Of a DNA stretch of 64,000 nucleotides, positions 55,837 through 56,713 are shown one piece after another. The DNA lies in IMG/VR virus record IMGVR_UViG_3300036797_000054, positions 32,001 through 96,000 of that record. One strand, given 5' to 3'. The translations under genes and the position numbers were made by a program. The first letter of the stretch is position 1. The number at the start of each line of letters is the position of its first letter. The stretch comes from a virus. Taxonomy: Duplodnaviria > Caudoviricetes. Below the pieces are notes generated by a model. It ran no database searches. It had not been told where the DNA came from and was given only the letters and a program-made list of their open reading frames with translations.

Positions 55837-55867
55837 AACGCCCGACTAGCGCGGTAGCCTCTTCTGC

Positions 55868-55936
55868 ATGGCGTTGATCGTTCGCCAGCGGACGTGGGGA
55901 TGGTCGCGGACGTGGGAATGGTCGCGCCAGGCGTAG
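55868..55936 (+). CDS. Trp-rich 22-aa leaderless mini-ORF (MALIVRQRTWGWSRTWEWSRQA)
   Basis: TAGCCT-N7-ATG context identical over 16 nt to that of ORF 36738; in-frame 18-nt tandem repeat. Confidence 0.45.
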   Translation: MALIVRQRTWGWSRTWEWSRQA

Positions 55937-56017
55937 CCGCCGGAGGTCGCCCGTTCAAGCCGGGCCGCGCGAGCACATCGCGCGTAGCTCAGTTGGTAGA
56001 GCACCGGCGGCTGCGCC
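55930..56017 (+). ncRNA. circularly permuted tRNA mimic (YrlA/Y-RNA topology)
   Basis: order T-arm (55949-65), loop-closed acceptor stem (55966-84), D-arm (55987-56002), enclosed by 14-bp helix. Confidence 0.8.
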
Positions 56018-56047
56018 GCGCGCTACACTGCCGCCGCTGCTGATCGC

Positions 56048-56136
56048 GCGCCCGTAGCTCAGTGGAGAGCACCGTCCCGTTGGCTCCGAAGGCCGCGAAA
56101 GGCGGAGGTCGCAAGTGTCGAGGCTTGCCGGGCGCA
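56048..56136 (+). ncRNA. tRNA-like RNA with 24-nt expanded anticodon loop and 8-nt T-loop
   Basis: GCGCCCG/CGGGCGC acceptor, GCTC/GAGC D-stem, CCGTC/GGCGG stem, AGGTC, GCAAG/CTTGC. Confidence 0.75.
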
Positions 56137-56184
56137 TTGACAGCTTCACTCGTTATGCTGCGGCGCGTGCATCGCACACCGCTC

Positions 56185-56280
56185 GCGCCGGTAGCTCAGT
56201 GGTCAAACCTGACCCTCGGGTTGGGGAAGAGCAGCGGTCTTTCAAGCCGCAGGTCGGCGGTTCGATCCCGCCCCGGCGCA
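56185..56280 (+). tRNA. atypical tRNA, anticodon TTC (Glu), 31-nt D-loop with inserted hairpin; no encoded CCA
   Basis: GCGCCGG/CCGGCGC, GCGGT-CTTTCAA-GCCGC, GGCGG-TTCGATC-CCGCC. Confidence 0.8.
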
Positions 56281-56325
56281 TCCCCCGTGACGGTGGCGGC
56301 CTTGGATCTCTGCCGTCACGGGGGA
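56281..56325 (+). promoter_or_regulatory. 16-bp hairpin overlapping RBS of pth2-like gene
   Basis: TCCCCCGTGACGGTGG / CTGCCGTCACGGGGGA; GGAGG at 56323-56327. Confidence 0.55.
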
Positions 56326-56332
56326 GGGGTCG

Positions 56333-56713
56333 ATGCCTGACCCGACGATCCCCATCGTCTACATCGTGTTCAACGGGCCGCTCGGCATGTCGCCGGGCAA
56401 GATGACGGCGCAGGCGTTCCAGCTCGCCGAGCGTCTGTTTCGAGCGGCCGATTCCTACGACGTGCCGATGGGAGAGCGCGTTGACCACCTACAGCGGGTA
56501 GGCGCGTGGCGCAAGCACACGACGACGATCACGCGCGTCGCCAAGACGCCGACGATGTGGGAGCGCGTCAAGGCCGAGGTCGAGGGCGTCGTCATGGTGG
56601 ACGAGGGCTACACCGAGGTCGAGCCGGGCAGCGAGACGTGCTTCGCGTCGTGGCCGATGCTGGTGGGCGACGCGCCGAAAATCCTCTCGAACGCCAAGGT
56701 GCCGCTGCTGTAG
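56333..56713 (+). CDS. peptidyl-tRNA hydrolase, Pth2 family
   Basis: YIVFNGPLGMSPGKMTAQA..VDEGYTEVEPGSETCFASWP matches Pth2 MxxGKxxAQ / DxGxTxxxPGSxT motifs. Confidence 0.85.
   Translation: MPDPTIPIVYIVFNGPLGMSPGKMTAQAFQLAERLFRAADSYDVPMGERVDHLQRVGAWRKHTTTITRVAKTPTMWERVKAEVEGVVMVDEGYTEVEPGSETCFASWPMLVGDAPKILSNAKVPLL

What the first reader, a model, noticed from the sequence alone, without database searches (positions are those of the whole stretch)
55855..56713. Candidate tRNA-decoy / translation-rescue module: three differently deformed tRNAs plus Pth2
Seen: within 860 bp lie a candidate leaderless promoter, a Trp-rich mini-ORF, a circularly permuted tRNA mimic with no anticodon, a tRNA with a 24-nt anticodon-loop expansion, a tRNA with a 31-nt D-loop, a long hairpin and a Pth2-motif gene. 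All three RNAs keep fully paired stems and share the GCUC/GAGC D-stem and AGGUC variable loop, and each is altered at a different arm. This argues for selected structures rather than random decay. Established: Pth enzymes recycle peptidyl- and N-acyl-aminoacyl-tRNA; many anti-phage effectors and toxins attack tRNA (PrrC/RloC and VapC nucleases, GNAT tRNA acetylases); phage tRNAs can offset tRNA loss. Inference: a panel of tRNA-shaped decoys plus a hydrolase that together counter tRNA-targeting defence, or that retune translation or stringent sensing. I do not know this combination as a described system, but could not search.
Basis: partly seen in the sequence, partly recalled or inferred. Interest (0 to 1): 0.92.

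Follow-up and report, generated by a model that had tools for sequence, protein, structure and literature searches.

The report
Phage tRNA-mimic cluster with Pth2 hydrolase
A soil-bacterium phage carries, in one likely transcription unit, a working but oddly built glutamate tRNA, two tRNA-shaped RNAs that cannot read codons, and an enzyme that frees blocked tRNAs; related phages keep the same pairing, which points to a kit for keeping protein synthesis going during infection.

Summary
The "three deformed tRNAs" are three different things.

- **RNA3 (56185-56280)** is not a phage-made deformation. It is a phage copy of the five-armed tRNA(UUC) that Solirubrobacterales carry on their chromosomes. 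In one complete genome it is the only GAA reader. This scan had already found that tRNA several times on other DNA.
- **RNA2 (56048-56136)** belongs to a recurrent class of anticodon-less tRNA-shaped RNAs. Seven examples in six contigs keep acceptor, D and T helices through compensatory changes.
- **RNA1 (55921-56029)** has the permuted YrlA (Y RNA) topology. It fails three of four YrlA criteria, and no Ro/Rsr gene is present in the phage record or in five host-clade genomes.

The 126-aa gene is a Pth2 family member with the conserved GK and D-x-G-x-T motifs. In 12 of 14 loci of its close family, a tRNA-like RNA lies 75 nt or less upstream on the same strand. In five of them the start codon begins one base after the discriminator base.

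The phage also encodes RtcB and a tRNA-Lys(UUU). The idea of phage tRNAs, RtcB and PTH2 as a tRNA repair and rescue toolkit is already published. The non-decoding mimics and the tight tRNA-pth2 cassette look undescribed. A decoy function is untested.

The parts
55855..55870 (+). Promoter-like -10 element TAGCCT followed 7 nt later by ATG (leaderless-type start of the unit)
   Evidence: The identical 16-mer occurs at 36725. The motif TAGCCT-N6-8-(A/G)TG occurs 4 times on the + strand and 0 times on the - strand, in the other three cases directly before long ORF starts at 22499, 36738 and 41115. The sigma-70 consensus scan finds nothing.
55868..55936 (+). 22-codon mini-ORF with four Trp codons, built on an 18-nt in-frame tandem repeat; its stop lies in RNA1's closing helix
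   Evidence: Read. No homologue is available, so coding is not shown. The fold of this stretch is not unusual (z = -1.5).
55921..56029 (+). RNA1: circularly permuted tRNA mimic (T-arm, acceptor-like hairpin, D-arm, long closing helix); YrlA-like but without Ro/Rsr
   Evidence: Rfam YrlA 41.2 bits (GA 69), full-length match, E = 4e-7. MFE -71.8 kcal/mol, z = -3.8. No GNCGAA motif. No TROVE gene in the record.
56048..56136 (+). RNA2: Arg-type-bodied tRNA-like RNA with a rod-like arm in place of the anticodon loop and an 8-nt T-loop; cannot decode
   Evidence: Rfam tRNA 41.6 bits. R1 model 55.8 bits with a 23-nt insertion at the anticodon loop. Fold. Class relatives in five other contigs keep their helices with 9 covarying pairs.
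56185..56280 (+). RNA3: five-armed tRNA(UUC), phage copy of the Solirubrobacterales GAA-reading tRNA, with a 7-bp hairpin in the D-loop
   Evidence: Rfam tRNA 61.9 bits. R1 104.5 bits. Aligns in register with 22 host and 5 phage variants: 98.5% of cells paired, and all 7 hairpin pairs covary.
56281..56325 (+). Long hairpin starting one base after the tRNA 3' end; its 3' arm overlaps the G-rich ribosome-binding stretch of pth2
   Evidence: Energy -32.8 kcal/mol, z = -3.4, 0 of 200 shuffles as stable. Hairpins occupy the same position in L063, L066 and L068. No U-tract terminator is called.
56333..56713 (+). pth2: 126-aa Pth2-family peptidyl-tRNA hydrolase
   Evidence: Pfam PF01981 26.7 bits against cut-off 23. 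phrog_1866. 26 homologues at 46-70% identity with invariant GK and D-x-G motifs. The profile matches solved Pth2 structures 1xty, 1wn2, 2zv3, 1rlk and 1q7s, E = 6e-7 to 8e-5.

Best explanation
The 860 bp are most likely one phage transcription unit. A leaderless-type promoter at 55855 would start it. The unit would yield three stable tRNA-family RNAs and the mRNA of a Pth2 hydrolase, with the host's tRNA-processing enzymes (RNase P at 5' ends, RNase Z-type cleavage after the discriminator base) cutting the pieces apart.

- RNA3 is a working elongator tRNA for GAA. It copies the unusual five-armed tRNA that the Solirubrobacterales host order uses for that codon.
- Pth2 releases tRNAs trapped as peptidyl-tRNA or N-blocked aminoacyl-tRNA.
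- RNA2 and RNA1 cannot read codons. They are kept as tRNA-shaped RNAs.

My best guess is that RNA1 and RNA2 compete for proteins that grip the tRNA body, meaning host tRNA-directed toxins, defence enzymes or processing factors.

What is shown: the structures, their conservation, the Pth2 family assignment, and the linkage of the RNAs to pth2.

What is inferred: co-transcription, processing, charging of RNA3 with glutamate, and any decoy action.
For: RNA3:
- It is homologous to a chromosomal 96-nt tRNA(UUC) found in more than 110 Solirubrobacterales/Thermoleophilia genomes.
- All five helices covary.
- In complete genome G018 the tRNA set holds tRNA-Glu(CUC) but no other UUC tRNA.
- GAA makes up about 20% of Glu codons in host-clade genes and 23.5% in the phage.
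- GAA codons align with Glu or Asp in RtcB and Pth2 alignments.

Pth2:
- Family score, conserved motifs and PDB profile matches.

Linkage of the RNAs to pth2:
- In 12 of the 14 close-family loci (42-100% identity) a tRNA-like RNA lies 75 nt or less upstream on the same strand: the window, L061-L063, L065-L070, L108, and a minihelix form in L064.
- In L061, L062, L065, L067 and L069 the homologous start codon begins one base after the discriminator, which leaves no room for a Shine-Dalgarno site.
- L066 and L069 have a palindrome plus a TANNNT element just upstream of the tRNA-like RNA.

Non-decoding class:
- RNA2, L065:2898, L066:1288, L067:2929, L063:2867, L442:532 and L442:763 have capped helices instead of anticodon loops. 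Acceptor and T stems are 100% paired, with 9 covarying pairs.

Genome context:
- RtcB is present in the same genome.
- The promoter motif is described.
- The published framing of phage tRNAs, RtcB and PTH2 as repair and rescue is in PMC7824862.
Against: - No expression, end-mapping or aminoacylation data exist.
- RNA1 and RNA2 have no homologues in alignable register, so their own covariation could not be tested. The only other copy of the locus is an apparently identical assembly.
- Permuted tRNA mimics in 14 other phage records never co-occur with PTH2 or RtcB.
- The five-armed tRNA occurs in phages that lack pth2.
- Two family members, L109 and L442, have no adjacent tRNA-like RNA.
- The excess of GAA in phage over host is small.
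- No known defence or anti-defence model matches the neighbouring proteins.
Confidence: 0.5

Rival explanations
1. Cis-only role. The tRNA-like RNAs are punctuation and expression signals for pth2. Processing at the tRNA 3' end creates a (near-)leaderless pth2 mRNA, or the structure (possibly bound by Pth2 itself) gates translation. RNA1 and RNA2 have no function of their own once they are cut out.
For: The start codon sits one base after the discriminator in five loci, with the homologous N-terminus, so no ribosome-binding site fits. The tRNA-like RNA keeps the same strand and position in 12 of 14 loci. Anticodon loops are dispensable in L063, L065, L066 and L067 while acceptor and T arms are kept. 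A hairpin of conserved position lies between tRNA and start in the window, L063, L066 and L068.
Against: The window's own pth2 has a spacer, a hairpin and a G-rich ribosome-binding stretch, so it does not need punctuation. RNA1 and RNA2 are not adjacent to pth2. L442 carries anticodon-less mimics 1.7 kb from pth2. L065 and L069 carry further family members downstream of pth2 or on the other strand. A UUG start on a leaderless mRNA is not known to work well (my own knowledge).
Confidence: 0.25
2. An ordinary phage tRNA cluster in decay. RNA3 is a plain phage tRNA. RNA2 and RNA1 are rearranged pseudogenes. pth2 merely sits in a tRNA island, as many phage PTH2 genes do.
For: Distant PTH2 genes in IMG/VR and metagenomes often lie in normal tRNA arrays. 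RNA2's T-loop lacks the TTC motif. A tandem pair of like tRNAs gives sub-threshold YrlA hits (L062:505-565), and 13 of 14 control genomes also give sub-threshold YrlA hits.
Against: All 21 cloverleaf pairs of RNA2 are intact, and it differs from RNA3 by compensatory swaps in the acceptor and T stems. Anticodon-less forms recur in six contigs with capped, lengthened helices rather than random damage, and they covary. RNA1's closing helix of about 13 bp cannot arise from two truncated tRNAs, and the fold is far better than shuffles.
Confidence: 0.12
3. RNA1 is a true Y RNA. It recruits a host Ro60/Rsr ring (with PNPase) for RNA quality control, as YrlA does in Salmonella and Mycobacterium.
For: Full-length match to the Rfam YrlA model, E = 4e-7. 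The same T / acceptor-hairpin / D order as YrlA (PMC4201824). YrlA and RtcB share an operon in Salmonella (PMC7790460), and this phage has RtcB.
Against: The score is 41 bits against a gathering score of 69. There is no GNCGAA motif. No TROVE gene is found in the phage record or in five complete host-clade genomes. The V-arm hairpin seen in most Rsr-linked phage YrlA-like RNAs is absent.
Confidence: 0.05
4. RNA1 and RNA2 are precursor tRNAs (a permuted gene and an intron-bearing gene). A phage endonuclease plus RtcB would mature them into working tRNAs, as in archaea and red algae.
For: RtcB is the ligase of that pathway and is encoded by the phage. PTH2 is the archaeal-type hydrolase. Insertions sit at the anticodon loop (RNA2) or the gene is permuted (RNA1).
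Against: The endolysin carries lysozyme and GH25 domains, so the host is bacterial, and the host clade is Solirubrobacterales. No way of excising the RNA2 insert leaves a 7-nt loop with U33. RNA1's helix runs on for about 13 bp with no bulge-helix-bulge and no loop. RtcB's neighbours have no Pfam match, so no endonuclease partner is identified there; a genome-wide search was not run.
Confidence: 0.04

Closest known systems
YrlA (Rfam RF02553), the tRNA-mimicking bacterial and mycobacteriophage Y RNA bound by Ro60/Rsr (Chen et al. 2014, PMC4201824)
   Same: RNA1 has the same permuted order (T-arm, acceptor-like hairpin, D-arm) closed by a long stem formed by the RNA's two ends. It gives a significant full-length model match.
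   Different: RNA1 scores below the gathering score and lacks the GNCGAAN0-1G motif. No rsr gene lies within 4 kb, anywhere in the record, or in five host-clade genomes. The closing helix continues directly from the anticodon-stem position, without the small V-arm hairpin.
Phage tRNA, RNA-ligase (RtcB/Rnl) and PTH2 repair and ribosome-rescue toolkit described for jumbo phages (Iyer et al. 2021, PMC7824862, section 3.4.9)
   Same: The same three components occur in one phage genome: its own tRNAs, RtcB and an archaeal-type PTH2. The proposed purpose is also the same, namely surviving tRNA-cleaving effectors.
   Different: This is a 123-kb phage of Thermoleophilia, not a jumbo phage. pth2 is physically fused to a tRNA-like RNA in a conserved cassette. 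Two of the three RNAs cannot decode. No TROVE protein is present.
Five-armed tRNA-Glu(UUC) of Solirubrobacterales
   Same: RNA3 has the same Arg-type body, the loop CUUUCAA and a 7-bp tetraloop hairpin at the same D-loop position.
   Different: RNA3 is a phage copy. Its acceptor pair 6:67 is swapped (G-C in place of the C-G that is invariant in the 22 host variants), and the hairpin sequence is its own.
Phage tRNAs that replace or outlast host tRNAs cut by defence nucleases (PMC11555353; bioRxiv 10.1101/2024.01.02.573894)
   Same: Phage-encoded copies of tRNAs with U34-type anticodons (here Glu UUC and Lys UUU) could restore decoding after an attack.
   Different: In those cases the RNAs are working decoders shown by experiment. 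Here two RNAs have no anticodon, and nothing has been tested.
tRNA punctuation of mitochondrial transcripts (my own knowledge)
   Same: In five relatives the coding sequence begins right at the tRNA 3' boundary, so tRNA excision would create a leaderless mRNA.
   Different: The setting is a bacterial phage. The window itself has a 52-nt spacer with a hairpin and a ribosome-binding stretch.

Membership tests
tRNA (Rfam RF00005): RNA3 | Score at or above the gathering score of 29 bits | tested here: met
   61.9 bits
tRNA (Rfam RF00005): RNA3 | Four cloverleaf helices supported by covariation, and a 7-nt anticodon loop with U33 | tested here: met
   Loop is CUUUCAA. Acceptor, anticodon and T helices are 100% paired with double-sided changes across 28 sequences. 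The D-stem is 99% paired but does not vary.
tRNA (Rfam RF00005): RNA3 | D-loop of normal size (about 7-11 nt) | tested here: not met
   The D-loop is 31 nt and holds a fifth helix of 7 bp. All 7 pairs covary.
tRNA (Rfam RF00005): RNA2 | 7-nt anticodon loop able to present an anticodon | tested here: not met
   24 nt fold into a rod with a 5-nt cap. It still scores 41.6 bits on the tRNA model.
Five-armed tRNA(UUC) of Solirubrobacterales | Arg-type body, UUC anticodon, and a 7-bp tetraloop hairpin at D-loop position 20a/b, in register | tested here: met
   Alignment A5 and pair counts. The body matches tRNA-Arg(ACG) of G018.
YrlA (RF02553): RNA1 | Score at or above the gathering score of 69 bits | tested here: not met
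   41.2 bits
YrlA (RF02553): RNA1 | tRNA-like domain with T, acceptor-like and D arms in permuted order | tested here: met
   Model alignment and MFE fold
YrlA (RF02553): RNA1 | GNCGAAN0-1G motif near the 5' end (PMC4201824) | tested here: not met
   No CGAA string occurs anywhere in 55850-56040.
YrlA (RF02553): RNA1 | Encoded within about 4 kb of a Ro60/Rsr (TROVE) gene on the same strand | tested here: not met
   No TROVE match in the 122.7-kb record, which is about 80% complete. None in five host-clade genomes.
PTH2 (Pfam PF01981) | Score above the curated cut-off of 23 bits | tested here: met
   26.7 bits. The family profile matches five solved Pth2 structures.
PTH2 (Pfam PF01981) | Conserved GK...AQ and D-x-G-x-T-(E/Q) motifs that align with the same motifs of archaeal Pth2 | tested here: met
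   K23 and D90 are invariant in 25 sequences and align with GK and DAG of 1xty and 1wn2. The His of the archaeal AQxxHA motif is replaced (AQAFQ).
PTH2 (Pfam PF01981) | Hydrolysis of peptidyl-tRNA | not testable with these tools
   Needs an enzyme assay.
tmRNA, including two-piece permuted forms | Detected by ARAGORN or Rfam tmRNA models; G3-U70 alanine identity pair | tested here: not met
   ARAGORN finds no tmRNA. No tmRNA family is listed in the Rfam scan at E up to 10, although one lower-scoring overlapping match of the same clan was not shown. RNA1 has G3-C70.
Phage tRNA repair and rescue toolkit (PMC7824862) | Own tRNAs, an RNA ligase and PTH2 in one phage genome | tested here: met
   tRNA-Lys(UUU) and RNA3, RtcB, PTH2. 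TROVE is absent.

The most novel reading that the evidence does not exclude
Phages of Thermoleophilia make dedicated, anticodon-less tRNA mimics: the RNA2 class and a Ro-independent Y-like RNA1. These would act as RNA decoys or sponges for host tRNA-directed immune effectors that recognise the tRNA body or 3' end. They would work in one operon with Pth2, which clears blocked tRNAs, and alongside RtcB, which reseals cut ones. That would be an RNA-based anti-defence strategy by tRNA mimicry.
Probability: 0.22. Interest if true: 0.9.

Novelty: new variant of a known kind. Interest (0 to 1): 0.66.

Why it matters
If the non-decoding RNAs are made and are stable, they would be a new class of phage tRNA mimic. 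They are kept by selection yet cannot translate, and they are linked to an enzyme that recycles tRNA. That would extend the current picture, in which phages answer tRNA-cutting defences with spare working tRNAs and ligases, to include RNA decoys.

The start codon abutting the tRNA 3' end in five relatives would also be a bacterial-virus example of tRNA-punctuated, leaderless gene expression.

The locus further shows that the five-armed GAA tRNA of Solirubrobacterales is carried, and varied, by their phages. This gives a natural series for asking what the fifth arm does.

Tried and rejected
- **Archaeal virus with spliced or permuted pre-tRNAs.** Rejected. The endolysin is of bacterial-host type, the host clade is Solirubrobacterales, and no excision of the RNA2 insert leaves a loop with U33.
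- **tmRNA-like reading of mini-ORF plus RNA1.** Rejected. ARAGORN is negative and no tmRNA family is listed by Rfam. RNA1 has no G3-U70 pair.
- **attP remnant.** Rejected. RNA3 is a full-length gene whose acceptor differs from every host variant seen. No tyrosine integrase is found in the record.
- **Close relatives in cultured phages.** blastn and tblastn against the phage collection with the locus, the 466-aa ORF at 735-2135 and Pth2 found nothing.
- **IMG/VR scan with Pth2 alone.** Found nothing. The profile scan found only distant PTH2 genes at 24-35% identity.
- **Homologues of the upstream 165-aa gene.** Only one other contig carries it, and its DNA could not be fetched. RNA1 and RNA2 therefore have no alignable orthologues.
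- **Scan for RNA1-like permuted RNAs.** Found 14 in IMG/VR. None is linked to PTH2 or RtcB and none reaches the YrlA gathering score.
- **Other negative searches.** PADLOC had no hits on the neighbours. No NAMPT gene is in this phage. The sigma-70 and U-tract terminator scans found nothing.
- **Codon-usage explanation.** The phage excess of GAA and AAA over host-clade genes is only modest.
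Full report
**Setting**

The window is bases 32001-96000 of a 122,744-bp IMG/VR virus record. The record is linear and about 80% complete by CheckV. It has 66% G+C and most predicted genes are on the + strand. It encodes a capsid protein, a tail sheath, a lysozyme/GH25 endolysin, RecT and a PD-(D/E)XK nuclease, so it is a contractile-tailed phage of a bacterium. 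No cultured phage in the collection resembles it at DNA or protein level.

**The observation**

ARAGORN at default settings sees no tRNA in the window. Infernal does see two:
- RNA3 (56185-56280) scores 61.9 bits on the tRNA model, with about 25 extra nt in the D-loop.
- RNA2 (56048-56136) scores 41.6 bits.

RNA1 (55921-56029) matches the Rfam YrlA (Y RNA-like) model over its full length. The score is 41.2 bits with E = 4e-7, below the gathering score of 69.

The folds agree with these readings:
- RNA1 is a T-arm, a 7-bp acceptor-like hairpin with a 5-nt loop, and a D-arm, closed by a long helix (-71.8 kcal/mol, z = -3.8).
- RNA2 is a cloverleaf whose anticodon arm is a rod with a 5-nt cap.
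- The hairpin at 56281-56325 is also unusually stable (z = -3.4).

The ORF 56333-56713 is a Pfam PTH2 member (26.7 bits, cut-off 23).

**RNA3 is the host order's own odd tRNA**

Of the 117 matches I parsed, 110 carry a chromosomal 96-nt tRNA with loop CUUUCAA, acceptor GCGCCCG and a hairpin in the D-loop. Nearly all of these genomes are Solirubrobacterales/Thermoleophilia. The remaining seven matches are unrelated sequences.

I aligned RNA3, five phage copies and 22 distinct host variants.
- 98.5% of cells pair.
- All seven pairs of the fifth helix change on both sides.
- No shuffle reaches the observed values.

In the complete genome G018 (2.86 Mb) there are 47 tRNA-model hits. These give a full tRNA set that includes tRNA-Glu(CUC) but no other UUC tRNA. 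The five-armed gene, which ARAGORN miscalls as Pro-GGG, is the only candidate reader of GAA.

The body of this tRNA is almost the same as that genome's tRNA-Arg(ACG).

GAA is in regular use: about 15 per 1000 codons, about 20% of Glu codons in host-clade genes and 23.5% in the phage (with rough gene picks). Where it can be checked, GAA aligns with Glu or Asp.

So RNA3 is best read as a working tRNA, a phage copy of a lineage-specific design. Earlier notes of this scan reached the same reading on other genomes. I found no paper on it. The phage copy does differ from every host variant at acceptor pair 6:67.

**Pth2 and its linkage to tRNA-like RNAs**

The protein has 26 homologues at 46-70% identity. 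K23 of a GK motif and D90 of a D-E-G-x-T-E motif are invariant. The family profile matches five solved Pth2 structures, and those motifs align. The His of the archaeal AQxxHA motif is replaced.

I fetched 11 contexts by exact protein look-up. Two more came from the metagenome scan. In 12 of the 14 loci, counting the window, a tRNA-like RNA lies 75 nt or less upstream on the same strand.

- In L061, L062, L065, L067 and L069 the start codon that gives the homologous N-terminus begins one base after the discriminator base. No ribosome-binding site fits there.
- In the window, L063, L066 and L068 a hairpin fills a spacer of 52-73 nt.
- L064 (Miltoncostaea oceani) has three tandem T-arm/acceptor minihelices. 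The last one ends about 5 nt before the start.
- L109 and L442 have none adjacent.

Most of these RNAs share the Arg-type body. Nine of them give 99.5% pairing and nine covarying pairs.

The five-armed tRNA also occurs in phages that lack pth2. The two elements are therefore separable, but in this clade they are strongly linked.

**A class of anticodon-less mimics**

The following have a lengthened, capped helix (tri- to penta-loops, including UUCG) where the anticodon loop should be:
- RNA2
- L065:2898-2999
- L066:1288-1368
- L067:2929-2999
- L063:2867-2943
- L442:532-607
- L442:763-842

Their acceptor and T stems are 100% paired, with compensatory changes in nine pairs. This argues against plain decay.

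Further variants also turned up:
- L069:2553-2644, a UUC tRNA with an expanded T-arm.
- L136, with 100-nt and 129-nt tRNAs bearing anticodon-region insertions, upstream of a distant PTH2.

**RNA1**

Chen et al. (PMC4201824) define YrlA by three things: a tRNA-like domain, a GNCGAAN0-1G motif, and a position within about 4 kb of rsr on the same strand. RNA1 has only the first.
- No CGAA string occurs in 55850-56040.
- No TROVE gene is in the record or in five complete host-clade genomes.

A scan of IMG/VR for the permuted arrangement gave 14 RNAs with a perfect 7-bp hairpin.
- Seven of the 14 records hold a TROVE gene, and most of those RNAs show a small V-arm hairpin before AGGTC.
- The other seven records do not, and several of those RNAs lie in tRNA arrays.
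- None of the 14 records has PTH2 or RtcB.

RNA1 therefore looks like a member of a Ro-independent set of permuted tRNA mimics. Its pairing with pth2 is, so far, unique to this phage.

**Transcription unit**

TAGCCT-N7-ATG at 55855 repeats an identical 16-mer at 36725. The relaxed motif occurs four times, only on the + strand. In the other three places it sits directly before a long ORF start. This fits a leaderless-type promoter that starts the unit at the mini-ORF. Whether the 22-codon, four-Trp ORF is translated cannot be told. Its stop codon lies in RNA1's closing helix, so translation and folding of RNA1 would compete (inference).

An independent assembly (SRR11834745) has the same 496-nt gap between the 165-aa gene and pth2.

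**Wider context**

The phage also encodes a canonical tRNA-Lys(UUU) at genome position 101017-101089. It encodes RtcB at genome position 117077-118393.

Iyer et al. (PMC7824862) already describe phage tRNAs, RtcB/Rnl ligases, TROVE with its tRNA-like partner, and PTH2 as a repair and ribosome-rescue set against tRNA-cleaving effectors. In Salmonella, YrlA lies in the rsr-yrlBA-rtcBA operon that damaged tRNAs switch on, and YrlA itself is not cut (PMC7790460). Three relatives (L062, L066, L069) place NAMPT and NUDIX genes next to pth2. From my own knowledge, that gene pair is a known NAD-restoring counter-defence.

**Verdict**

- The module is real and conserved.
- RNA3 is a normal tRNA for its host.
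- RNA1 follows a known topology without its known partner.
- The general idea is already published.

The new points are the recurrent anticodon-less mimics, the tight tRNA-pth2 cassette with a start codon at the tRNA boundary, and the Ro-less Y-like RNA.

I put a co-transcribed translation-maintenance/counter-defence unit at about 0.5 and a purely cis role at 0.25. The specific decoy reading gets about 0.2.

Noticed in passing
L277-L396 (GTDB genomes); G018:C1:1141087-1141182 (L421): A 96-nt five-armed tRNA(UUC) with an Arg(ACG)-like body is chromosomal in more than 110 Solirubrobacterales/Thermoleophilia genomes. In complete genome G018 it is the only UUC tRNA, and ARAGORN miscalls it as Pro-GGG.
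   Followed up: yes
L442:60-860: An array of odd tRNA-likes lies 1.7 kb upstream of a 46%-identical pth2. One has an 8-nt anticodon loop (69-146). Two have capped rods instead of anticodon loops (532-607, 763-842). A gene had been called over the array.
   Followed up: partly
L064:2440-3000 (Miltoncostaea oceani CP064357.1): Three tandem copies of a T-arm/acceptor minihelix, separated by hairpin repeats, lie directly upstream of a pth2 homologue. The last copy ends about 5 nt before the GTG start.
   Followed up: no
L062:1561-3905; L066:2185-4577; L069:2654-5063: NUDIX and NAMPT gene pairs, which look like NAD-salvage counter-defence genes, sit next to the tRNA-like/pth2 cassette in three relatives. 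The window's phage has no NAMPT.
   Followed up: partly
L237, L260, L177, L266, L183, L220, L191 (IMG/VR): Permuted tRNA mimics (T-arm, perfect 7-bp hairpin, D-arm) occur in phage records with no TROVE/Rsr gene, several of them inside tRNA arrays. One such record (L177) is 100% complete. None reaches the Rfam YrlA cut-off.
   Followed up: partly
L069:2553-2644 (-); L136:1531-1630 and 1846-1974: Further deformed tRNAs lie near pth2 genes. One is a UUC tRNA with a hairpin-expanded T-arm. The others are 100-nt and 129-nt tRNAs with 27-55 nt inserted in the anticodon region, in a lower-GC phage.
   Followed up: no
L066:1230-1290; L069:1830-1880: A palindrome of the form CGGACG-N1-3-CGTCCG, followed by a TANNNT element, lies just upstream of the tRNA-like RNA. 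This looks like an operator-controlled promoter for the cassette.
   Followed up: no
window 22485, 36725, 41102, 55855: TAGCCT-N6-8-(A/G)TG occurs four times on the + strand only. Three copies sit directly before a long ORF start (22499, 36738, 41115) and the fourth before the mini-ORF (55868). It is a candidate phage promoter for leaderless transcripts.
   Followed up: partly
window 55339-55836: The 165-aa ORF just upstream has an HEMAH zinc-protease-like motif and a weak, sub-threshold Pfam ATLF hit. It has no homologue other than an identical copy in one other assembly.
   Followed up: partly
genome 117077-118393 (outside the window; L071:1105-2421): A 438-aa RtcB RNA ligase. Its neighbours have no Pfam match.
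   Followed up: partly
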